Sequence record: MT129654.1
Origin: Escherichia phage MN04
Reading direction: 5' to 3' (one strand)
DNA length: 64,000 nucleotides
Shown piece after piece: positions 1,647-54,096 of this stretch. Every line of letters begins with the position of its first letter. Within the stretch, counting starts at the first letter, position 1. A program made the position numbers and the translations under genes. A model generated the notes under the pieces. The model was not told the origin of the DNA and searched no databases. It saw only the letters and a program-made list of their open reading frames with translations.

Positions 1647-2926
1647 TTTTTATCCAATGGAGGAAGTTTTACACCAAGATAAGAACTCAATTGACTTTGA
1701 TTAGCCATTTTGTCCATATCCGCACCATCAATAATACGAGCTTCTTTGTCGTCTTTAGCGACGGTATAAGGATTCGCAGTCAATGCATACCGAGCCAATA
1801 AAGATATGGTAGGTTGCAATGAATCCGGGTCTACAATAACCTTGAATTCACCTACTGAAGTATCACCTTCATCATCAACCTCTTCGAGCCCTTCCGTATA
1901 AGGCGCATAATACAAAGATGCGACCGTCTGCCCTTCACCCATCTGAGCATTTACACCGACAATAACATAATCACACGGGCTATTCATATCAGCATAAAGT
2001 GGTAGACCGTTCTTTAATACGCCATAAGCTAATTCGTCTTGGTCTTCTTTTTTCTCAACCCAACCGGATGCAGCTAAAATAGCAGCGCAGCGAGAAGAAG
2101 CTACTGCATAAGTACCTGCAAACGAAGTCTGGCGTTGAACAGCAGAATTCATTTCACACATATAGTAATACAAGGTACGTGCTCGGTCTTGGGCGTTATC
2201 GTATTGTGGGTCTGTTAAGTTCAAGACACCTTTCTCAGAAACTCCTTGGACTTTAAAACGAGAACTTACCGTAATTAAGGACTGTAATACGTCTTTATTA
2301 ATTTCTTCAGCCATTTGAATAGCCAAAATATTGTCTATAAAGTCCGGTGCATTAAACCCGTTGGATTCTAAATCCTGGGCCAGTTCCACAGTCAAAGAAG
2401 TTTTAAGTTTACGCGATTTAACTTCAGTCTGCCACTTATCAATACGGAACCCTGCTTCAGCAATCTCAGGATGACCTTTTTCAAATTTATTGGTAAAGGC
2501 TGCATCAGACATCATACGAATATGGCCCGCGGCAATAGCTTCTGAAATAACTTCACTCAAATCGGTTTCAGTTGTTCCTGCAAACGGAGAAGCTTCTAAT
2601 ACCTTGAAAACCACACTTTCGAATTGGAACATATCGCCAACAGCATATGCTTCGTCTTTATCGGTGAACTCAGGAATGTTTTTACGTTCGAACATACCAA
2701 TTTCGCCTGCAAAAGTGGCTCCGCCGAGATAAGTCATTTTATCGTCTGGGTTTAAAACACGGACACCATATAATGCTGCAACAGGTTGAGTAGTTTTTTG
2801 TTCAGCAACAAGGGCTTTAAAAATTCTTTTATTAGTTGCCTGGGTATATGAAAGAAGATTAGGACGGGCGACCTGGTTGGCCGCCGTCAAAGTTGATTCT
2901 TGTATTAATGCATTAATCTTTTTCAT
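1643..2926 (-). CDS. gp24: Head vertex protein gp24, divergent second paralog
   Basis: 427 aa; clearly paralogous to adjacent gp24 (shared KSRKLKT, ELAQD, NKDVLQSLITVS, NPYTVAKDDKEAR); start ATG abuts upstream stop (TAAATG). Confidence 0.8.
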   Translation of the reverse strand: MKKINALIQESTLTAANQVARPNLLSYTQATNKRIFKALVAEQKTTQPVAALYGVRVLNPDDKMTYLGGATFAGEIGMFERKNIPEFTDKDEAYAVGDMFQFESVVFKVLEASPFAGTTETDLSEVISEAIAAGHIRMMSDAAFTNKFEKGHPEIAEAGFRIDKWQTEVKSRKLKTSLTVELAQDLESNGFNAPDFIDNILAIQMAEEINKDVLQSLITVSSRFKVQGVSEKGVLNLTDPQYDNAQDRARTLYYYMCEMNSAVQRQTSFAGTYAVASSRCAAILAASGWVEKKEDQDELAYGVLKNGLPLYADMNSPCDYVIVGVNAQMGEGQTVASLYYAPYTEGLEEVDDEGDTSVGEFKVIVDPDSLQPTISLLARYALTANPYTVAKDDKEARIIDGADMDKMANQSQLSSYLGVKLPPLDKN

Positions 2927-4207
2927 TTATGCCTCGTAAATAATCGGAGGAAGTTTAACACCAAGCAGATAAGACATGTTACTCTGACCTGCCATTAAAT
3001 CCATATTAGTTGCGTCTATAACACGAGCTTCTTTATCATCTTTAGCAACGGTATATGGGTTTGCTGAAAGTGCATAACGAACCATCAGAGAAATAGCCGG
3101 TTGTAAACTATCAGGGTCTACAATAACTTTATACGCACCAACATGTTCTTGGTCGTCTAAATCCAGACCTTCGGTATACGGAGCATAGAAAATAGAACCA
3201 ACTACTTCATTACCGCCGTAATCTTCTTTAACGCCTACGATAACATAATCTAAAGGACTATTAACATCACAGAATACAGGCAATCCATTAATCAAATAAC
3301 CGTAAGCAGTTTCTGGGAGCCAAGCTTCATCTTCTGGTTTATGTTTCAACCAACCTGAACCAGCGAGCATAGCAGCAGCACGACTAGATGCGACAACAAA
3401 CGTACCTGAATAAGAAGTGGTTTTCTGAATTTCAGAATTCATCTCACAAACCATTTCATATAATTTACGTGCACTTTCTGGGGCGGAATTATAGGACAAA
3501 TCAATAATACCATTATCAGATACACCAGTTACTTTGTAACGTTTAGATACGGTAATCAAGGATTGTAGTACGTCTTTATTGATTTCATCAGCCATTACAG
3601 TGGCTAAAAGGTCTTCTAAGAACGCAGGGGCGTCGAAGCCATTGGATTCCATGTCTTGGGCTAGTTCTACAGTCAAAGCGGTTTTAAGTTTACGAGACTT
3701 AACAGGTGCGTTCCATTTATTAACCTGGAATACTGCATTACTAATTTCAACATCACCTGCTTCGAATTTCTCTGTGTGAGCCGCATCAGGAACCAGACGA
3801 CATGTTAATGACACCAAACCTTCTTGAAGGGCCTCAGCCAATTCTGTAGCGCTAGTGGATGCGAGTGGGCTTGCTTGAAGAGCCTTATAAACTATGTTCT
3901 GATACTTGAAATATTCACCCTTGGCAATAGCCTGGGCCTTATCTGTGAGTTCTGGGATAGTTTCACGGTCTTTAGAACCAACTTCACCGCCATAAACGGC
4001 ACCAGTTTGGAAGCTAAATTCATTATCAGGAGTAAGATATTTGACACCATACAATGCAGCAATAGGCTGGCTAGTACGTTGTTCAGCAATAATATCACGG
4101 TAAATCAATTTGGTTGTAGCACGGGTCAAAGCAACAAGATTAGGGCGACCCAATGAGTTGCTAGAAGTAGTTGTTGACTCGCGCAGTAATTCGTTAATCT
4201 TTGCCAT
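2927..4207 (-). CDS. gp24: Head vertex protein gp24
   Basis: 426 aa; MAKINELLRESTTT N-terminus and overall match to T4 gp24; adjacent to gp23. Confidence 0.85.
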   Translation of the reverse strand: MAKINELLRESTTTSSNSLGRPNLVALTRATTKLIYRDIIAEQRTSQPIAALYGVKYLTPDNEFSFQTGAVYGGEVGSKDRETIPELTDKAQAIAKGEYFKYQNIVYKALQASPLASTSATELAEALQEGLVSLTCRLVPDAAHTEKFEAGDVEISNAVFQVNKWNAPVKSRKLKTALTVELAQDMESNGFDAPAFLEDLLATVMADEINKDVLQSLITVSKRYKVTGVSDNGIIDLSYNSAPESARKLYEMVCEMNSEIQKTTSYSGTFVVASSRAAAMLAGSGWLKHKPEDEAWLPETAYGYLINGLPVFCDVNSPLDYVIVGVKEDYGGNEVVGSIFYAPYTEGLDLDDQEHVGAYKVIVDPDSLQPAISLMVRYALSANPYTVAKDDKEARVIDATNMDLMAGQSNMSYLLGVKLPPIIYEA

Positions 4208-47886: not shown

Positions 47887-48473
47887 TGGCCCTTTATGAA
47901 CCAGGTTGTATGGGTGTTGATGTAAACTTCATCCGTCGGTCTGAAAATGCCGGAATCATTATCCCAAGTGGTGAGAATATGATTATTAAAAAGTCCTGGC
48001 GAAATATTGATGATGGTGATGAAGGAATTTCAGCCAGTACAATAGATTGGTCAGGTTGTACTGCTGAAATGAAACAACTTTTAATTGAGGAATATAAAAT
48101 GGGTTATATCGTAAATGGTTGGCAACCAGAACCTCATAAAGAACAGACTCCAGACCCATTGATTTGTTATAGCAAAAAATATGGCTTTCGTGCATGGAGT
48201 GATGAATACGACAAATTGGTGAGTTCTAGGTTCTATGTTTGGATGGGTATATTATTTTTCCCACTCCTAGGGTTTTTCCTGACAACAGATAATGACCTGC
48301 CTATTACTGTATTCGCTTCGGCCATGTCTGCAGCTATCTTAGGTCTTATTGCATCATTTTTATGGACCTCTGTTATCGAAGTACCTTTTCGTATTTCTAA
48401 AGTTAAAAAGGTGTATGACGATATAACCAAGAAAAATACATTAAACTCTTTTATTGAGGAATGCCGTAAATGA
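47886..48473 (+). CDS. Membrane protein (hypothetical)
   Basis: 195 aa; two TM helices in C-terminal half; ATG overlaps upstream stop. Confidence 0.5.
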   Translation: MALYEPGCMGVDVNFIRRSENAGIIIPSGENMIIKKSWRNIDDGDEGISASTIDWSGCTAEMKQLLIEEYKMGYIVNGWQPEPHKEQTPDPLICYSKKYGFRAWSDEYDKLVSSRFYVWMGILFFPLLGFFLTTDNDLPITVFASAMSAAILGLIASFLWTSVIEVPFRISKVKKVYDDITKKNTLNSFIEECRK

Positions 48474-48706
48474 GTATTGCAATTTATATTAAATCTGAGT
48501 CGTGTGATTCTTATCTGTATTCCTATGATACGGGTACATCAGAAGAGAAAATCAAAGAAGATTTAGAAAGCGACTTGGATATGTTCCGCCCTATTTCTGA
48601 CTATATGGTCCAAATATCTGATAGTGAAAGTCCGTCAACAGAAACGTGTGTTGAAATTATTATACGAGATATTTTTGAACAATCATGGAAACGAGACGAT
48701 GAGTAA
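48470..48706 (+). CDS. Hypothetical acidic protein
   Basis: 78 aa; ATGA overlap. Confidence 0.4.
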   Translation: MSIAIYIKSESCDSYLYSYDTGTSEEKIKEDLESDLDMFRPISDYMVQISDSESPSTETCVEIIIRDIFEQSWKRDDE

Positions 48707-49145
48707 AGTTAAAGAATTATCCGCAGGTATTTTGTTCATGACCGCCGATAAAGAATTGGTTATGGGTCGTGTAACAGGCTCTCGTAATCCAGAGAACATG
48801 CGTCATAAATGGGACATTCCTAAAGGTCATGTCGAACCAGGCGAAGAGCCTATTCAAGCAGCAATGCGTGAAACCGAAGAAGAGATTGGATTCACGGCAT
48901 ACGACCCTGCGTTCCTGAAAGACCTAGGTGAGTTCAAATATTCAAGCAATAAGAATCTACACCTGTTCTTATATACTGTGCCTGTCGAACACGAGCAGTT
49001 CAAGAATTGCAAATGTACAGCTTACCATACGTTCCCTGATGGTCGTACGATTCCGGAATTCGACGCTTTCGCTTTGATTAAACGTCCGCAATGGGAATAT
49101 GTCATGGGCCCGTCGATGTTTAAGGTTTTAGATTCGCTCTTTTGA
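48699..49145 (+). CDS. nudE: Nudix hydrolase
   Basis: Nudix box 'GHVEPGEEPIQAAMRETEEEIG'; ATG 48699 (track start is upstream extension); directly upstream of e as in T4. Confidence 0.8.
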   Translation: MSKVKELSAGILFMTADKELVMGRVTGSRNPENMRHKWDIPKGHVEPGEEPIQAAMRETEEEIGFTAYDPAFLKDLGEFKYSSNKNLHLFLYTVPVEHEQFKNCKCTAYHTFPDGRTIPEFDAFALIKRPQWEYVMGPSMFKVLDSLF

Positions 49146-49175
49146 TATAAATACCTCCTATAATCAGGAGGTATT

Positions 49176-49664
49176 ATGGATATTTTTGATATGTTACGTC
49201 AAGACGAAGGTCTTGATTTAAATCTTTATAAAGACACTGAAGGTTATTGGACTATTGGTATTGGCCAGTTAGTTACCAAGAACCCATCTAAAGATGTTGC
49301 TCGCGCTGAACTTGATAAGCTTATGGGCCGAGTTTGTAATGGTCGTATTACTATGGCTGAAGCTGAACAACTCTTTAATCGTTCAGTGGAAAATGCTCGT
49401 AGAGCTATAATGCGTAATCCTAAATTGAAACCGGTTTATGATGTGCTGGACGAAGTTCGTCGTTGCGCATTGATTAATATGGTCTTCCAAATGGGCGAAG
49501 CTGGTGTAGCAGGATTTACCAACTCTCTGCGTATGCTCCAACAGAAACGTTGGGATGATGCCGCAGTTAACCTGGCGCAGTCTCGTTGGTACAAGCAAAC
49601 CCCGAATCGTGCCAAGCGTGTTATCGCCACTTTTAAAACAGGTACTTGGGCTGCTTATAGATAA
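49176..49664 (+). CDS. e: Lysozyme (endolysin)
   Basis: 162 aa; '[30 protein letters not shown]...' near-collinear with T4 lysozyme. Confidence 0.95.
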
Positions 49665-49669
49665 AAGCA

Positions 49670-49698
49670 GTTTACATCTCCTAGAATTGTGATAGTAT
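49670..49698 (+). promoter_or_regulatory. Early promoter (GTTTACA ... TAGTAT)
   Basis: GTTTACATCTCCT shared with promoter at 52196. Confidence 0.55.
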
Positions 49699-49748
49699 AT
49701 CTACAGTTACTTGAACAGACTAATTAAATTTACATTTGAAGGACCCGT

Positions 49749-50345
49749 ATGAAAACGTATAAAGAATTTATCACCGAAGCTACTGCAGGAAAGGTCAAAG
49801 GCATTAATAAAGATGAGTGGACCTACCGAGGAAACGGCGTTGACAACCCAGGAAACGGCTTTGACGCTAAAACAGCTCCTATTGAACGGTATTTAGCTAC
49901 AAAAGCTTCCGACTTTAAAGCTTTCGCCTGGGAAGGACTTCGCTGGCGTAACGACCTAAATATTGAAGCTGATGGACTTAAATTTGCTCATATTCAGGAT
50001 GTTGTTGCTAGTAACTTAGACGCAGCTTTTGTTAAAGCTGACAGCGACCTTCGTCGCTGGAATTTAAAACTGTTCTCTAAACAGAAAGGTCCGGTATTTG
50101 TACCTAAAGCAGGTAAATGGACTATTGATAATAAATTGGCTAAAGCAGTCAACTTCGCTGGTCTTGAATTTGCCAAGCATAAATCAGCATGGAAAGGTCT
50201 TGATACAATGGCTTTCCGTAAAGAATTTGCCGATGTTATGACTAAAGCCGGCTTTAAGGCAGAGCTAGATACCTCTAAAGGTACGTTTAAAGACGCTAAT
50301 ATTCAGTACGCTTACGCCGTTGCTAATGCCGCTCGTGGTAATTAA
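49749..50345 (+). CDS. ipIII: Internal protein III-like (capsid targeting sequence)
   Basis: 198 aa; N-terminus MKTYKEFITEA; position after e as T4 ipIII. Confidence 0.7.
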   Translation: MKTYKEFITEATAGKVKGINKDEWTYRGNGVDNPGNGFDAKTAPIERYLATKASDFKAFAWEGLRWRNDLNIEADGLKFAHIQDVVASNLDAAFVKADSDLRRWNLKLFSKQKGPVFVPKAGKWTIDNKLAKAVNFAGLEFAKHKSAWKGLDTMAFRKEFADVMTKAGFKAELDTSKGTFKDANIQYAYAVANAARGN

Positions 50346-50405
50346 TAAAGCCTATACTGACCCTTAAATCCGTGATAGAATACTTCTATCAACTTAAGGA
50401 ATAAT

Positions 50406-50705
50406 ATGAAAACTTATCAAGAATTTATTACAGAAGCCAAAGCTCCTAAAGCATTCCAAATAGGTGTCCAAGGCACCTTAGACCAAGAATATGTTGATGC
50501 TATTGTAGCAAGCCTCGGTAAACAGGGTGTACAAGTGGATTTGGTTGATTTTACTAAAGGTAATACTTTTAATATTGTTACATCTAAAGGCTCTTTAGCT
50601 AAAGTTAAAAAGGCCTTTGGTGTAGCCCAAGCATACGAAATCGACCACTCCGAATTGGAAAATAAAGGTCGCCAGAACACAATTAAAGGTTCTGGTTCTT
50701 TCTAA
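50406..50705 (+). CDS. ipII: Internal protein II-like (capsid targeting sequence)
   Basis: 99 aa (T4 IPII about 100); N-terminus MKTYQEFITEA. Confidence 0.7.
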   Translation: MKTYQEFITEAKAPKAFQIGVQGTLDQEYVDAIVASLGKQGVQVDLVDFTKGNTFNIVTSKGSLAKVKKAFGVAQAYEIDHSELENKGRQNTIKGSGSF

Positions 50706-50801
50706 TAAAGGCAAGCCGGCCCTCTCCTCATGAACGTCGCGTCCTCTGAGTGATGGACCTTTCCCTACCTGTAATAAGGTCGAGCCCAAGTGCGGTAAAG
50801 G

Positions 50802-50830
50802 GTTTACATACGGATACATGGATGAATTAT
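50802..50830 (+). promoter_or_regulatory. Early promoter (GTTTACA, 17 bp, AATTAT)
   Basis: Hexamers with 17-bp spacer, 35 nt upstream of ATG 50866. Confidence 0.5.
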
Positions 50831-50865
50831 GTGCCAAGGAATGGCCCCACAACTAAGAGACAATT

Positions 50866-51411
50866 ATGAAAACGTTTTTAACCGGTAGTTATCTATCCCT
50901 GATGAATGCTTTTGCAAACCATTCTGATGCTAGAGTAGAACACATTTGTAATAGTGGGTTTTATGTACCCGATTCACCAACCCTGTTTAAAGAATGCTGC
51001 ACCTTAAAACTTGACGGCGGACGCCAATCTGGCAAAACAAGGGCAGTATCCATTTTTGCTACAGAATGGTTAGCTAATGGTGGCTCTATTGTTATTTTGT
51101 CTAATAACACGGCGTATGCTAATGTTTCGGCTACTGCAATCCGAAAAGAATATTTTAATAACCATACAGAAAGTATTAAGTACCGTTTGTACACTGATTC
51201 TGTTCGTAGTTTTATTGGTAACACTGCATGCAAATTCCGTGGATTATCACTTTCACGGGTTCTGTATATAATTGATGAGCCTGTTAAAACACCTGATATG
51301 GATAAGATTTATGATGCTCATATAAAGGTAGTCCAGAATTGCTGCCGAGCTCAATGCGTAGAAAGAAATCAAACCGCAAGACCTTTGTTTTTTGTGATAG
51401 GAATGCAATGA
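50866..51411 (+). CDS. P-loop NTPase (hypothetical)
   Basis: 181 aa; Walker A 'GGRQSGKT', Walker B 'LYIIDEP'. Confidence 0.55.
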   Translation: MKTFLTGSYLSLMNAFANHSDARVEHICNSGFYVPDSPTLFKECCTLKLDGGRQSGKTRAVSIFATEWLANGGSIVILSNNTAYANVSATAIRKEYFNNHTESIKYRLYTDSVRSFIGNTACKFRGLSLSRVLYIIDEPVKTPDMDKIYDAHIKVVQNCCRAQCVERNQTARPLFFVIGMQ

Positions 51412-51704
51412 TGACTGATGAAGAGCTTTTTGAGTTCTGTTATTTCTCACGTAAGGTTCGAAGAGAGGACCTTACTGCAAATTTCGAATATGCTTATTTC
51501 TATCCATTAGAATATGTATTCATGTCAGGGCCCTTTAAGGGCTCTCGTTTTAGATGCCATGCCCCAAGCATCCGATTAATGAAACAGGTTCCTTACTTCA
51601 CTCTCGAGTTCATCTCTGGGCCGTGTAAGGGTATTATTACTCGCAGTCTCTTGACGTATGACCAAGAGATTCATATGATTTCTGACTGGAAAAAATATGT
51701 CTAA
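51408..51704 (+). CDS. Hypothetical protein, translationally coupled to P-loop gene
   Basis: ATG 51408 overlapping upstream TGA; 98 aa with internal duplication (YVFMSGPFKGSRF / LEFISGPCKGII). Confidence 0.45.
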   Translation: MMTDEELFEFCYFSRKVRREDLTANFEYAYFYPLEYVFMSGPFKGSRFRCHAPSIRLMKQVPYFTLEFISGPCKGIITRSLLTYDQEIHMISDWKKYV

Positions 51705-51915
51705 ATTGACAATTGAAGGCTCTGATGAAGCCCTGAAGATGTTTGTTGACTGGTTCCACGAACAGGGCGAACAAGGCTTTATGGAATGTTGGGACGGTGG
51801 CCAATGGAATGGTAAAGAAATTGTTTACCCGACTACGTATATCTCTGTTAGTGGTGGATACGATGGCCTTCGTTTTGTAGAATATGATATTGCATCTGAT
51901 GAGGAAGTGAAATGA
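51697..51915 (+). CDS. Hypothetical protein
   Basis: 72 aa; ATG overlaps upstream stop. Confidence 0.45.
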   Translation: MSKLTIEGSDEALKMFVDWFHEQGEQGFMECWDGGQWNGKEIVYPTTYISVSGGYDGLRFVEYDIASDEEVK

Positions 51916-52190
51916 TTGAAGATATCAAGGGTTACAAGCCACATACCGACGATAAAATCAGTAAAGTGAATGCCATTAAAGATGCTGAAGTTCGATTAGG
52001 CTTAATCTTTAAAGCATTAGAAGAAGAATACGTTGAAGCCTTTACATGCTCAGGTGTTGATAAAATGAGTGATGAAGAATTCGACCTCACTCATGAACGT
52101 CTCGCCCAGATTCGTACGGCAATCGAACGCTTGAAAGAAGCCTCCATGTGGGCCTGTCGTTCTGTTTTCCAACCCGAAGAAAAATACTAA
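51912..52190 (+). CDS. Hypothetical protein
   Basis: 92 aa; ATGA overlap. Confidence 0.45.
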   Translation: MIEDIKGYKPHTDDKISKVNAIKDAEVRLGLIFKALEEEYVEAFTCSGVDKMSDEEFDLTHERLAQIRTAIERLKEASMWACRSVFQPEEKY

Positions 52191-52195
52191 AAGCA

Positions 52196-52240
52196 GTTTA
52201 CATCTCCTGTAGACGTGGTACTATAGACCTATCAACTACA
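52196..52240 (+). promoter_or_regulatory. Early promoter module with flanking inverted repeat
   Basis: GTTTACA; CTCCTGTAG ... TACTATAGACCTATCAA ... CTACAGGAG. Confidence 0.6.
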
Positions 52241-52252
52241 GGAGATTACAAA

Positions 52253-52711
52253 ATGTCAGAAATTAATTCAGAAGTATTCATCCGCCGCAACAAATTACGT
52301 CGTCAGTTCGAAACCGAATTTCGTGAACTTAACGCGTCCATCAAAAAAGCCGCCATCAAGAGCGGTGTCCCAGCTTTCTTTATTAAGTACTCTAATCACT
52401 TGTTGGACCGTGCTATCCAACGTGAAATTGACGAAAAATATGTTTTCTCTTTGTTCAAGAAGCTCCATAATCATGTTAAAGAAATCCATGAATTTTTAAT
52501 CCAGGAGCCTCTTCCTGACATAGAATCTGAAATTGTCCCAGGTAAAGTGTATCGTCCACTGCGTCTCGAGATTACCGATAAAACCTTATGGTTGGGTATG
52601 ACCGTAGATCGTAAACATCCTGATAAAGGATATTCATTAAAATGTCGTATGGCATTTGTTAACTCTAAACGTTTAGAAGGTAAAACCAGCACGAAAGTAA
52701 TCTATCTTTAA
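52253..52711 (+). CDS. regB: RegB-like endoribonuclease (tentative)
   Basis: 152 aa (T4 RegB 153); early promoter; position between ip genes and tk; assignment by size and synteny, not confirmed alignment. Confidence 0.45.
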   Translation: MSEINSEVFIRRNKLRRQFETEFRELNASIKKAAIKSGVPAFFIKYSNHLLDRAIQREIDEKYVFSLFKKLHNHVKEIHEFLIQEPLPDIESEIVPGKVYRPLRLEITDKTLWLGMTVDRKHPDKGYSLKCRMAFVNSKRLEGKTSTKVIYL

Positions 52712-52723
52712 TAATGAGGTCTC

Positions 52724-53263
52724 ATGAAAAAAGTATTAGCCACTTTACTATTGACAGTTAGTATGTCTGCCTATAGCGTAGAGCCTACTTTCAGTAATGA
52801 ACAACTCGATAATTTACATTATGCGTATGCTTTCGGTGAACAATACCAAAAGTCGGGAAAGTTCAAAGAAAACCCTAATCAAAAAGGATTAGGATATATA
52901 ATGGCCGGATTATTATGGCAGGAATCATCTGCTGGAATTAATCAAGGTTTAAATAAAGATAAGCACCATGCTTATGGCATGTTCCAAAATTACTTGCCTA
53001 CGTTAAGAAGTCGTGTTCAACAGGTAGGTTGGAAGATGTCAGACAAAGAAATAATTCGTATGGTCCAAAAACGACAGAACAGTGCCTCTTGGGCCTACAT
53101 TGAGCTGTCTTATTGGATTAATGTTCACAAAGGTGACCTGAGAAAAGCGATTGCTTCTTATAATGCGGGCTGGAATGTCAAAGCAGGCAGTAAATATGCT
53201 TCCGAAGTTCTAGAAAAGGCCAATTACCTAAAATCTAAAAAGATGTTTGAGGCGGTATATTAA
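52724..53263 (+). CDS. Secreted lytic transglycosylase-like protein (SLT family motifs)
   Basis: Signal peptide MKKVLATLLLTVSMSAYS; motifs 'WQESS', 'AYGMFQ', 'ASYNAGWN' resembling SLT E-S / GLMQ / AYNAG. Confidence 0.6.
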   Translation: MKKVLATLLLTVSMSAYSVEPTFSNEQLDNLHYAYAFGEQYQKSGKFKENPNQKGLGYIMAGLLWQESSAGINQGLNKDKHHAYGMFQNYLPTLRSRVQQVGWKMSDKEIIRMVQKRQNSASWAYIELSYWINVHKGDLRKAIASYNAGWNVKAGSKYASEVLEKANYLKSKKMFEAVY

Positions 53264-53620
53264 ATGATTAAACAGATGACTATAGCGCTTATGTTGATTG
53301 CTCCGGGAGTATTAGCATCACAGGTTGATGATACAAATAATTCAATTGTCGAGTATGCCACCCGTACAGCAAAAGATTATTGTCATCCAAGTAATACTGA
53401 ATGTGTTATTGAATTCAGTTCAAAAATAACAGCTGCTTTTAAAGATGGGCAGAACGACGTCGAGCATCGCCGAATGAAAGAGAAAACTCTTTCTAAAAGA
53501 TACGAGCAACGTCTAAACGTTACTGAATGTGTTCCGTCTGATAAAAAGTACAAAGAAATGTGCGCGTCTATGGTAGACAGACTCGTTGACTCTTACAACC
53601 GAGGGCTAAACTCTAAATGA
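53264..53620 (+). CDS. Secreted Cys-containing small protein (hypothetical)
   Basis: Signal peptide MIKQMTIALMLIAPGVLAS; four Cys; 118 aa. Confidence 0.5.
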   Translation: MIKQMTIALMLIAPGVLASQVDDTNNSIVEYATRTAKDYCHPSNTECVIEFSSKITAAFKDGQNDVEHRRMKEKTLSKRYEQRLNVTECVPSDKKYKEMCASMVDRLVDSYNRGLNSK

Positions 53621-54096
53621 TTATTGATTATATTAAGGGCGATATCGTCGCCCTGTTTCTCCAAGGTAATATTATTGCACATGGGTGTAACTGCTTTCAC
53701 ACAATGGGTTCAGGTGTAGCGGGTCAATTAGCAAGAGCTTATCCTAAAATTTTAGAAATTGATAAGACTACTACCGAATACGGCTCTCGTGATAAATTAG
53801 GTGATATGTCTATTGTTTTTAAACATAAGCCTAATGGATTTGCAATGTGCTATAATTTATACACCCAATACGAACCAGGCCCTAATCTTGATTACGGTGC
53901 TTTAGTAAACTGTATGATAGAATTAAATCTACAAGCAAATGACCTTTTGTTTAAACCAAGAATTTATATTCCTCGTATAGGTTGTGGTATTGCTGGTGGC
54001 GATTGGGACAAGGTTTCTCAATTAATTGATATGTTTACCCCTGATATTGATTTAATAGTGGTGGATTATGAAAGCACATTACCCACATCCGTTTGA
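53617..54096 (+). CDS. Macro-domain-like protein (putative ADP-ribose binding/processing)
   Basis: 159 aa; 'GDIVAL...NIIAHGCNCFHTMGSGVAGQLARAY' and 'IPRIGCGIAGGDWDKV' resemble macro-domain Gly-rich motifs. Confidence 0.55.
   Translation: MIIDYIKGDIVALFLQGNIIAHGCNCFHTMGSGVAGQLARAYPKILEIDKTTTEYGSRDKLGDMSIVFKHKPNGFAMCYNLYTQYEPGPNLDYGALVNCMIELNLQANDLLFKPRIYIPRIGCGIAGGDWDKVSQLIDMFTPDIDLIVVDYESTLPTSV

What the first reader, a model, noticed from the sequence alone, without database searches (positions are those of the whole stretch)
50866..51704. Small P-loop NTPase translationally coupled to a protein with an internal duplication
ORF 50866 (181 aa) has GGRQSGKT and LYIIDEP motifs. The next ORF starts on an ATGA overlap and contains two similar segments (YVFMSGPFKGSRF and LEFISGPCKGII), suggesting a two-component module occupying roughly the T4 denV position.
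Basis: seen in the sequence. Interest (0 to 1): 0.4.

Follow-up and report, generated by a model that had tools for sequence, protein, structure and literature searches.

The report
T4 vs.8–vs.7 pair plus unannotated RNA
The two overlapping genes are this phage's copies of T4 vs.8 (a stand-alone copy of the ATPase domain of the DNA-packaging terminase) and vs.7 (a small SH3-like protein), so the pair is ordinary; the gap just upstream holds a conserved, pseudoknotted RNA that I could not find described anywhere.

Summary
ORF 50866-51411 has intact Walker A and B motifs. The next ORF starts on an ATGA overlap and carries two similar GPxKG segments.

The interpretation needs correcting. The window is a JS98-like (Dhakavirus) T-even phage, and the two ORFs are orthologues of T4 vs.8 and vs.7. 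In T4 these lie directly after denV, so nothing has replaced denV; it is simply absent.

Vs.8 is a stand-alone paralogue of the terminase large-subunit ATPase domain, not a kinase. A 2026 paper already reports this and shows that Vs.8 triggers the immune sensor EcAvs2. Vs.7 is an SH3/KOW-like barrel, and the "duplication" is a repeated hairpin inside that one domain. The overlap and adjacency persist in lineages with about 40% identity, but such overlaps are common in T4. A Vs.8-Vs.7 complex and an anti-defence role are inferred, not shown.

The 160-nt gap upstream (50706-50850) is not a denV remnant. It is a structured RNA with strong covariation and a pseudoknot, present in about 1000 phage genomes. 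T4's annotation reads it as the Vs.8 N-terminus. It has no Rfam match, and in other phage families it lies beside tRNA genes.

The parts
50706..50850 (+). Conserved structured RNA immediately upstream of vs.8. It is adjacent to the finding and probably an autonomous element. Helices in window coordinates: P1 50707-50711/50758-50762; P2a 50720-50724/50752-50756; P2 50727-50730/50747-50750; P3 50763-50766/50799-50802; P4 50767-50770/50777-50780; P4b 50784-50786/50791-50793; near-invariant GGUAA 50794-50798; P5 50806-50809/50829-50832; P6 50833-50836/50842-50845.
   Evidence: Nucleotide conservation with T4 exceeds that of the flanking genes. Covariance model R1 finds the element in all T4-like loci tested except L022, at E 1e-46 to 1e-18. 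On 42 sequences, 87% of cells are paired, 17 pairs change on both sides, and 0 of 500 shuffles reach the observed values. RNAalifold independently recovers P1, P4 and P4b. No conserved ORF exists in the frame that T4 annotates as coding. No Rfam match at E <= 10.
50716..50718 (+). 5' strand of the pseudoknot (CCG, in the bulge between P1 and P2a). It pairs with 50811-50813.
   Evidence: Found by an all-against-all column scan and confirmed with the count of structure pairs. One pair shows CG 16, UA 11, AU 6 and GC 3; its neighbour shows GC 22, CG 9 and AU 4. The pseudoknot was not part of the model used to align the sequences, so the alignment was not fitted to it.
50811..50813 (+). 3' strand of the pseudoknot (CGG).
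50855..50860 (+). Purine-rich ribosome-binding region (AAGAGA), 5 nt before the vs.8 ATG.
   Evidence: Read from the sequence. An in-frame TAA four codons upstream of the ATG closes the frame, so Vs.8 cannot carry the N-terminal extension annotated in T4.
50866..51411 (+). vs.8 orthologue, 181 aa: a stand-alone terminase-type (RecA-like ASCE) ATPase domain. Walker A GGRQSGKT is at 51016-51039 and Walker B LYIIDEP at 51262-51282.
51399..51411 (+). Translational-coupling junction: AGGA (51399-51402) inside the vs.8 coding sequence, and the ATGA start/stop overlap (51408-51411).
   Evidence: GGAATGCAATGATGA is conserved in most of 20 loci, with TAATG or a similar overlap in the rest.
51408..51704 (+). 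vs.7 orthologue, 98 aa: two N-terminal helices plus a five-stranded SH3/KOW-like barrel. The repeated hairpin motifs are at 51513-51551 (YVFMSGPFKGSRF) and 51603-51638 (LEFISGPCKGII).

Best explanation
SHOWN. The two ORFs are the orthologues of T4 vs.8 and vs.7 in a JS98-like (Dhakavirus) T-even phage. denV, vs.6, vs.5 and vs.3 are simply absent from this genome segment.

[quoted passage not shown] It has the terminase-style Walker A with Arg-Gln (G-R-Q-x-G-K-T; T4 gp17 has S-R-Q-L-G-K-T) and a hhhhDE Walker B. It lacks the nuclease domain. These motifs are nearly invariant across the family, so nucleotide binding, and probably hydrolysis, is under selection.

Vs.7 is a small SH3/KOW-like beta-barrel. 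Its first two hairpins (strands 1-2 and 3-4) both turn on a GPxKG motif, and that is the 'duplication'.

vs.7 starts on the vs.8 stop codon behind an internal AGGA, and this arrangement is kept in lineages whose proteins share only about 40% identity.

INFERRED. The two proteins are made in fixed proportion from one transcript and act together, with Vs.7 as an adaptor or regulatory subunit bound to the Vs.8 ATPase.

The pair lies at the head of a run of known counter-defence genes. In this window that run includes vs.4 (Acb2, anti-CBASS); T4 also has vs.3 (TadIV-1, anti-Thoeris IV). T4 Vs.8 is bound by and activates the terminase sensor EcAvs2. The most likely role is therefore in the phage-host conflict around terminase recognition: a terminase-ATPase look-alike that engages host factors which target TerL. 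Some Avs2 alleles have in turn learned to detect it.

The complex, the ATPase activity and the anti-defence role are all untested.
For: - Orthology and synteny with T4. PHROG families at E 1e-68 and 8e-46.
- High-confidence models for both proteins.
- Motif invariance across 34 family members that share as little as 20% identity with the window protein.
- The family is small and always a stand-alone protein of about 170-185 aa: 44 representatives among 1.84 billion proteins.
- Coupling junction and Vs.7 adjacency conserved.
- SH3-like fold of Vs.7. Repeat statistics.
- Neighbourhood: Acb2 domain at 51912-52190 and RegB.
- Literature: Vs.8 is homologous to the terminase ATPase and toxic with EcAvs2 (AF3 ipTM 0.84), and the authors suggest a possible anti-defence function (PMC13601566). 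Vs.3 is TadIV-1, and Vs.3-Vs.8 were expressed from 'the promoter of vs.8' (PMC13243611).
Against: - No direct evidence here that Vs.8 and Vs.7 bind each other. No multimer prediction was possible.
- 4-nt overlaps are the rule in this cluster, and gene order in T-even phages is conserved in general, so coupling and synteny are weak evidence for a functional module.
- vs.7 is missing after vs.8 in 2 of 20 loci (L016, L022), so Vs.8 can exist without it.
- In the only experiment on record, Vs.8 activates EcAvs2 rather than inhibiting it.
- Strictly conserved catalytic residues point to an enzymatic job that a passive decoy would not need.
- The Terminase_6N and gp17 sequence matches are marginal (23.3 bits; E 0.007).
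Confidence: 0.45

Rival explanations
1. The two proteins are merely neighbours. Vs.8 and Vs.7 act independently, and the ATGA overlap is the generic tight packing of T4 early genes rather than the sign of a two-component module.
For: Comparable overlaps join unrelated neighbours in the same cluster: vs.7/ORF72 overlap by 8 nt at 51697-51704, ORF72/acb2 by 4 nt at 51912-51915, and vs/tk.4 by 4 nt at 53617-53620. vs.8 occurs without vs.7 in L016 and L022. No fusion of Vs.8 with Vs.7 turned up among 44 family representatives.
Against: The adjacency and the overlap survive in lineages at about 40% identity, where other vs genes (vs.6, vs.5, vs.3, denV) come and go. No Vs.7 homologue was recovered from a contig of a size other than that of T4-like phages.
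Confidence: 0.25
2. The pair is an accessory of DNA packaging or another nucleic-acid transaction. Vs.8 would be a minimal motor or regulatory ATPase acting with gp16, gp17, the portal or DNA, and Vs.7 would be its nucleic-acid- or partner-binding SH3/KOW-like subunit.
For: Terminase-type Walker A, the gp17 match and RecA1-type fold. Conserved catalytic Glu. Vs.7's weak structural matches include the SH3-like domains of the SF1B helicases RecD, Pif1 and Helraiser, while Vs.8 matches Dda, RecD2 and Helraiser.
Against: The gene sits among counter-defence genes, not with the structural and packaging genes. A single RecA-like domain has no obvious translocation mechanism. The family is confined to T4-like phages, whereas all tailed phages package DNA.
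Confidence: 0.12
3. The pair forms a ribonucleoprotein with the upstream RNA. Vs.8/Vs.7 would bind the structured RNA at 50706-50850, either to autoregulate the operon or to assemble an RNA-ATPase particle comparable to phi29 pRNA with gp16.
For: The RNA precedes vs.8 in about 1000 T4-like genomes: the RNA is in 1021 phage records and Vs.8 in 1009. The pattern-matched copies were followed by vs.8 in almost every evaluable locus. SH3/KOW-like and RecA1 folds are common RNA binders.
Against: The RNA core occurs without vs.8 or vs.7 in the stretches fetched from Vequintavirus-like and other phages. vs.8 occurs without the RNA in L022. In L031, L034, L042 and L069 an internal-protein gene separates the RNA from vs.8 while the RNA stays intact.
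Confidence: 0.08
4. ORF181 is a standard nucleotide or nucleoside kinase.
For: Only the presence of a P-loop.
Confidence: 0.01

Closest known systems
Phage T4 Vs.8 (NP_049732) and Vs.7 (NP_049731)
   Same: Orthologues: 61% and 48% identity, the same order, the same 4-nt overlap, and the same neighbours (ipIII, ipII upstream; vs.4/Acb2, regB, vs.1, vs, tk.4 downstream).
   Different: This phage lacks denV, vs.6, vs.5 and vs.3 in the region. T4's Vs.8 is annotated 40 aa longer at the N-terminus. That extension is the translation of the conserved RNA and is closed by stop codons in most other lineages.
Large terminase ATPase domain (T4 gp17 N-terminal subdomain I; Pfam Terminase_6N)
   Same: Walker A with Arg-Gln before G-K-T, Walker B hhhhDE, and a RecA-like ASCE fold. 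gp17 is the best sequence match in the PDB and a top structural match. Homology is reported in PMC13601566.
   Different: Only about 180 aa: no nuclease domain and no second ATPase subdomain. It lies among counter-defence genes rather than packaging genes. The sequence similarity is marginal.
Ksap1 and Ksap2, the other non-terminase activators of Avs2
   Same: Small lineage-restricted phage proteins that resemble the terminase ATPase fold and trigger Avs2. Their own function is unknown and is suspected to be anti-defence.
   Different: No sequence relationship. Ksap1 is 74 aa and sits between a methyltransferase gene and a phosphatase gene. Only Vs.8 keeps Walker motifs. Whether Vs.8 is the trigger during a real infection is unknown.
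SH3-like / KOW barrels (Spt5/NusG KOW, KIN17 SH3-like tandem, FeoA)
   Same: Five-stranded small barrel. The first hairpin reads like a KOW motif (x-D/S-G-P-F-K-G).
For the adjacent RNA: HDV-like ribozymes (nested double pseudoknot), and phage RNAs that lie beside tRNA genes (T4 RNA C/D, ROOL, GOLLD)
   Same: The strand order is the same as in the HDV fold as I recall it (P1 5' strand, pseudoknot 5' strand, hairpin, P1 3' strand, second domain, pseudoknot 3' strand). Outside T4-like phages the RNA sits next to tRNA genes.
   Different: There is no conserved cytosine in the strand joining the second domain to the pseudoknot. The most conserved part here is the domain that is dispensable in HDV. 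No Rfam model (HDV, ROOL, GOLLD or any other) matches. The model found only one copy in the window, about 11 kb from the window's tRNA genes.

Membership tests
T4 Vs.8 family (phrog_1488) | Full-length profile match and conserved position after the internal-protein/denV genes | tested here: met
   E 1.2e-68 over residues 3-181. 61% identity to T4 Vs.8 at the syntenic position.
T4 Vs.7 family (phrog_2049 / PF26834) | Full-length profile match; conserved Y-x-F-x-x-G-P-F ... F-x-x-G ... S-L-x-x-Y-D core | tested here: met
   E 8.2e-46. Close homologues carry PF26834. Invariant G41, P42, F43 and D85.
Large terminase subunit (TerL) | Terminase-type Walker A (R-Q before G-K-T/S) and Walker B hhhhDE | tested here: met
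   GGRQSGKT and LYIIDE are nearly invariant in 34 homologues and align to gp17 RQLGKTT.
Large terminase subunit (TerL) | Pfam Terminase_6N score at or above the gathering threshold | tested here: met
   23.3 bits against a cutoff of 22, covering only profile positions 4-86 of 215. A marginal pass.
Large terminase subunit (TerL) | C-terminal RNase H-like nuclease domain and full two-subdomain ATPase | tested here: not met
   The protein is 181 aa and a single RecA-like domain. All family members are about 145-260 aa. It is therefore a paralogue of the ATPase domain, not a terminase.
SF2 / DEAD-box helicases | Two tandem RecA-like domains | tested here: not met
   Only one domain is present, and only the RecA1 domain of the helicases aligns. 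No helicase family appears in Pfam at E <= 1.
Nucleotide / nucleoside kinases | Kinase-type P-loop fold and family profile match | tested here: not met
KOW / SH3 domains (for Vs.7) | Profile match to KOW (PF00467) or an SH3 family; small five-stranded barrel | tested here: inconclusive
Anti-defence protein (as for neighbours Acb2 and TadIV-1) | Demonstrated inhibition of a defence system | not testable with these tools
   Only neighbourhood and published EcAvs2 activation are available. The PADLOC and anti-defence libraries were not searched.
Any Rfam 15 family (for the RNA at 50706-50850) | Covariance-model match | tested here: not met
   Nothing relevant at E <= 10 in focused scans of the window element and of the L067 variant, and nothing at E <= 1 in 48000-54000. 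ARAGORN finds no tRNA or tmRNA at the element in T4 or three other loci.
HDV-like self-cleaving ribozymes (for the RNA) | Nested double pseudoknot, plus a conserved catalytic C in the strand before the closing pseudoknot | tested here: not met
   The topology matches. The joining strand is UUUACAUA, UAAAUA, UAUA or CU in different lineages, with no conserved C. No Rfam HDV hit.
Riboswitch (for the RNA) | Conserved aptamer, an expression platform, and a consistent class of downstream genes | tested here: inconclusive
   In favour: near-invariant junction nucleotides, and tandem copies in L013, L084, L040 and L020. Against: no terminator or SD-sequestering helix in the window, and the downstream genes differ between phage families.

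The most novel reading that the evidence does not exclude
The 145-nt stretch at 50706-50850 may belong to an undescribed class of phage structured RNA. It has a nested double-pseudoknot core of about 90 nt: P1, a bulge-to-3' pseudoknot, and a three-way junction carrying the near-invariant ACCUGUAAUAAGGUCGAGCCNAAGNGCGGUAA. BLAST finds it in about 1000 sequenced phage genomes, most of them T4-like and including T4 itself, where the reference annotation translates it as the first 40 residues of Vs.8. The core also occurs in Vequintavirus-like phages, a Pseudomonas phage and phages of about 45 kb, usually within a few hundred nucleotides of tRNA genes. On this reading it is an autonomous functional RNA: a stable non-coding RNA, or a ligand- or protein-binding RNA linked to tRNA/translation biology or counter-defence. 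The T4-like lineage would have extended it with two hairpins whose loops read ANGGA, which I recall as the CsrA-binding motif.
Probability: 0.5. Interest if true: 0.75.

Novelty: new member of a known kind. Interest (0 to 1): 0.5.

Why it matters
Taken as written, the finding is the JS98-type copy of two known T4 genes, and the ATPase nature of Vs.8 was published in 2026. It still has value in two ways.

1. It gives a testable design for an open question raised by that paper: what Vs.8 is for. Vs.8 has a conserved, co-translated SH3-like partner that the Avs2 work did not consider. Co-expressing Vs.7 could change whether Vs.8 triggers or blocks terminase sensors.

2. Following the "empty" 160 nt upstream led to an RNA in the best-studied phage that appears unannotated and has strong covariation support. 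If confirmed, it corrects the T4 reference annotation of vs.8. It also adds a widespread structured RNA to phage biology, tied to tRNA clusters in several phage families.

Tried and rejected
- **denV remnant or replacement.** Rejected. There is no DenV similarity anywhere in the 64-kb window. The same upstream element sits next to an intact denV in T4.
- **Small ORF in the gap.** T4 annotates the gap as coding, and the window has a 39-aa GTG ORF at 50750-50869. Rejected: in that frame many lineages have no ATG, the frame opens only 0-18 nt before the core in many loci, stops fall at variable places, and 1-nt indels occur inside the core.
- **Known RNA families, tRNA or tmRNA.** None found.
- **HDV-like ribozyme.** The topology is similar, but there is no conserved catalytic C.
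- **Thermodynamic support.** The single-sequence MFE is a different structure with z = -0.01. The comparative structure scores -17.4 kcal/mol without the pseudoknot, against -38.8 for the MFE. The case for the RNA therefore rests on covariation, not on energy.
- **Host origin of the RNA.** No match in 5,426 complete E. coli genomes. The 7 hits to a 22-mer in 185,579 species genomes are about the number my own rough estimate gives for chance, and they match the model only locally.
- **Link between the RNA and Ksap1/Ksap2 loci.** Ksap1 lies elsewhere in its genome, so I dropped this.
- **Promoter or terminator flanking the RNA in the window.** Nothing convincing.
- **afdb50 fold search.** The library was unavailable.
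- **Literature searches on 'vs.8' alone.** Swamped by clinical 'vs. 8' text until I combined the term with 'phage'. Three searches for a description of the RNA found nothing.
- **Automated search for the pseudoknot in all families.** Too noisy to use. Outside the T4-like set, the pseudoknot was read by eye from the sequences printed.

Full report
**What the window is.** The region reads, on the + strand:
- nudE (48624)
- lysozyme e (49176-49664)
- two internal head proteins with the MKTY(K/Q)EFITEA targeting peptide (49749-50345 and 50406-50705)
- a 160-nt gap
- ORF181 (50866-51411)
- ORF98 (51408-51704)
- a 72-aa ORF (51697-51915)
- an Acb2/Vs.4 homologue (51912-52190)
- regB (52253-52711), then vs.1, vs and a 159-aa ORF at the tk.4 position

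Megablast places the region in JS98-like Dhakavirus phages at 93-97% identity. In T4 the order is nudE, e, ipIII, ipII, denV, vs.8, vs.7, vs.6, vs.5, vs.4, vs.3, regB, vs.1, vs, tk.4.

**The observation.**
- GGRQSGKT (residues 51-58) and LYIIDEP (133-139) are in ORF181.
- vs.7 starts at ATG 51408, which overlaps the TGA of ORF181 as ATGA, with AGGA five bases upstream.
- The two segments YVFMSGPFKGSRF and LEFISGPCKGII are more alike than chance allows: hhalign of the two halves of the family alignment gives 85% probability and E 5.8e-6, and the shuffle test gives p = 0.0014.

**Identity of the proteins.** ORF181 matches phrog_1488 (E 1e-68) and ORF98 matches phrog_2049 (E 8e-46). tblastn finds ORF181 in 1009 phage records, including T4 vs.8 at 61% identity. 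T4 Vs.7 is 48% identical to ORF98. The pair is therefore T4's own vs.8/vs.7.

denV is absent from the whole 64-kb window, as are vs.6, vs.5 and vs.3. In the close relative vB_EcoM_005, denV lies between two internal-protein genes further upstream, and the same 160-nt gap still precedes vs.8. Nothing has replaced denV.

**Vs.8.**
- Pfam gives Terminase_6N just above threshold (23.3 against 22 bits).
- A profile of 34 homologues finds the T4 gp17 ATPase as the best PDB sequence (E 0.007), aligning the Walker A region.
- The AF2 model is confident (pLDDT 88.5). It is a single RecA-like ASCE domain.
- An exhaustive profile search of 1.84 billion representatives finds only 44 clusters, nearly all 145-195 aa. 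Walker A and B are nearly invariant among them.
- BFVD shows similar small stand-alone ATPase folds in Aeromonas and Vibrio phages and in jumbo phages.

This is not new. A Nature Communications paper of August 2026 describes T4 vs.8 as an uncharacterised ATPase-like homologue of the terminase ATPase domain. It reports that Vs.8 is toxic when co-expressed with the immune sensor EcAvs2, leaves its function open, and suggests a possible anti-defence role (PMC13601566). That paper's main text does not mention Vs.7.

The two GPxKG motifs are the turns of hairpins beta1-beta2 and beta3-beta4 of this one barrel. The "internal duplication" is therefore a repeated hairpin, not a duplicated domain.

Distant homologues lack the N-terminal helices but keep both motifs. 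No Pfam KOW or SH3 hit was found. Homologues carry a precomputed PF26834 label, and I could not look up its name.

**Is it a module?** The overlap is present in 18 of 20 diverse loci; most read GGAATGCAATGATGA and the rest have a 1-nt TAATG-type overlap. A complete Vs.7 follows in 16. Two loci (L016, L022) have a different gene after vs.8, and two are cut by the locus end or interrupted.

This favours a functional pair, but the evidence is weak for two reasons. First, such overlaps also join other neighbours in the cluster. Second, T-even gene order is generally stable.

The neighbourhood is rich in proven counter-defence genes: Acb2 here, plus TadIV-1 (Vs.3) in T4 (PMC13243611). My best reading is a co-translated ATPase and SH3-like adaptor acting in the conflict around terminase recognition. 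A physical complex, ATPase activity and the anti-defence role are inference.

**The gap upstream.** Aligning 50690-50900 with T4 showed the "intergenic" stretch to be better conserved than the genes around it.

T4 annotates this stretch as the first 40 codons of Vs.8. In the window an in-frame TAA lies four codons before the ATG, and most other lineages also close the frame. In that frame there is no conserved ORF: many loci have no ATG, stops fall at variable places, and 1-nt indels occur inside the core.

Across 42 distinct sequences aligned with a covariance model, the proposed helices are 87% paired. Seventeen pairs change on both sides, 0 of 500 shuffles reach the observed values, and registers slid by 1-3 columns fall to 21-45% paired. 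P1 alone appears as AAAGG/CCUUU, AAAGC/GCUUU, AAAGA/UCUUU, GGGAA/UUCCC, GGGAG/CUCCC and GGGG/CCCC, among others.

An all-against-all column scan then revealed a pseudoknot between the bulge after P1 and the bases just 3' of the P5 5' strand. It occurs as CCG/CGG, CAC/GUG, CGC/GCG, CUG/CAG, CCA/UGG and UCG/CGA. This helix was not in the model used for the alignment, so it is independent evidence.

G-U pairs occur on the + strand only, so the RNA is read in the same direction as vs.8. RNAalifold independently recovers P1, P4 and P4b.

Against this, single-sequence folding neither recovers nor favours the structure. The MFE z-score is -0.01, and the comparative structure scores -17.4 against -38.8 kcal/mol.

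**Distribution of the RNA.**
- BLAST finds it in 1021 phage records, mostly T4-like.
- It is a single copy in the window.
- It is absent from 5,426 E. coli genomes.
- Hits to a 22-mer in 185,579 species genomes are few (7, roughly what my own estimate gives for chance) and match the model only locally.
- Rfam 15 has no match.
- Some phages carry two tandem copies of the 5' domain (L013, L084, L040, L020).

The roughly 90-nt core (P1, pseudoknot, P3/P4/P4b junction with GGUAA) also occurs elsewhere:
- Vequintavirus isim and related 121-140-kb contigs
- Pseudomonas phage PsgM04F, where it lies inside the tRNA cluster
- E. coli phage Ivi (45 kb), where it follows the endolysin gene and has an intrinsic-terminator-like hairpin with a U-run about 100 nt downstream (read by eye from the sequence)
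- phages of about 46 kb and 75 kb

In 11 of 14 such loci, tRNA genes lie within about 600 nt on the same strand. No vs.8 or vs.7 is nearby in L067, L079 or L024. In four T4-like loci an internal-protein gene sits between the RNA and vs.8. L022 has vs.8 without the RNA.

The RNA therefore looks autonomous rather than a vs.8-specific leader. Its function is unknown.

The strand topology equals that of HDV-like ribozymes as I recall it, but the catalytic C is not conserved. Tandem copies and invariant junction bases are riboswitch-like, but I found no expression platform. The T4-like 3' extension carries two hairpin loops reading ANGGA (50818-50822 and 50836-50840). From memory this resembles CsrA binding sites; I did not test it.

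**Verdict.** The finding as written is a correct observation of a known gene pair, so I file it as a new member of a known kind. The denV-replacement idea is wrong, and the "module" and "duplication" claims are only partly right.

The main open questions are whether Vs.7 partners with Vs.8, and what the pair does. The most interesting thing at this locus is the adjacent RNA. I could not find it described in Rfam or in the searchable literature. That is not proof that it is unpublished.

Noticed in passing
window 50706-50850 (+): The 'intergenic' stretch before vs.8 is a conserved structured RNA with eight helices, one of them a pseudoknot. Covariation support is strong and Rfam has no match. 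Single-sequence folding does not favour the structure (z about 0).
   Followed up: yes
L001 (T4 NC_000866) 2881-3000, the annotated first 40 codons of vs.8: The T4 reference start of vs.8 is probably wrong. The N-terminal extension (MRDSRQPVIRSSPSAV...) is the translation of the RNA core. The conserved start is the MRTFLTG methionine, and other lineages have stop codons in this frame. Several database proteins of 194-196 aa (P0004, P0005, P0008, P0011) may carry similar over-extensions.
   Followed up: yes
L087 2467-2553, L088 2478-2565, L089 2469-2563, and L090, L094, L095, L097, L098, L100, L103, L104: The RNA core also occurs in Vequintavirus, a Pseudomonas phage, a 45-kb E. coli phage and several uncultured phage contigs, usually within 200-600 nt of tRNA genes on the same strand. 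In the 46-kb phages and in L088 an outer stem (GUUGUGA/UCACAAC) appears to close the whole element; I read this by eye.
   Followed up: partly
L013 2224-2481, L084 309-566, L040 5048-5304, L020 2244-2428: Two tandem copies of the RNA 5' domain, each apparently with its own pseudoknot partner (read by eye), lie ahead of a single P5-P6 region and vs.8.
   Followed up: partly
window 50818-50822 and 50836-50840: The loops of P5 and P6 both read ANGGA (AUGGA and AAGGA) and keep GGA in nearly all T4-like copies. From memory this resembles CsrA/RsmA binding sites. Not tested.
   Followed up: no
window 51697-51915; protein P0073; L018 3037-3093: The 72-aa ORF after vs.7 (phrog_1986) overlaps vs.7 by 8 nt. 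In Enterobacter phage PG7 the database protein P0073 joins the Vs.7 barrel to a homologue of this ORF, which could be a frameshift or a real fusion. In that phage's locus (L018) the vs.7 frame is interrupted after 18 codons. In L016 and L022 this ORF directly follows vs.8.
   Followed up: no
window 51912-52190, 52253-52711, 53617-54096: Neighbours are an Acb2/Vs.4 homologue (PF24729, E 5e-16), RegB, and a 159-aa ORF at the position of T4 tk.4 (which T4 annotates with an A1pp phosphatase motif); I did not scan that ORF. The T4 counter-defence gene vs.3 (TadIV-1), and vs.5, vs.6 and denV, are absent from the whole window.
   Followed up: partly
(BFVD matches to the Vs.8 model): Small (about 145-175 aa) uncharacterised proteins with a similar single RecA-like fold occur in Aeromonas and Vibrio phages and in jumbo phages (201phi2-1, PhiPA3, phiRSL1, EL). 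This may be a wider class of stand-alone mini-ATPases.
   Followed up: no
L097 810-1148, L100 237-629, L024 403-762 (- strand): In Vequintavirus-like contigs the RNA is followed by a sigma70-like promoter (read by eye from the sequence) and a 112-130-aa protein with a KKRRRRGRPLKEE motif. tRNA genes, spanins and the large terminase follow within about 2.5 kb. L024 has a similar GGRPT protein downstream. The small protein was not identified.
   Followed up: no
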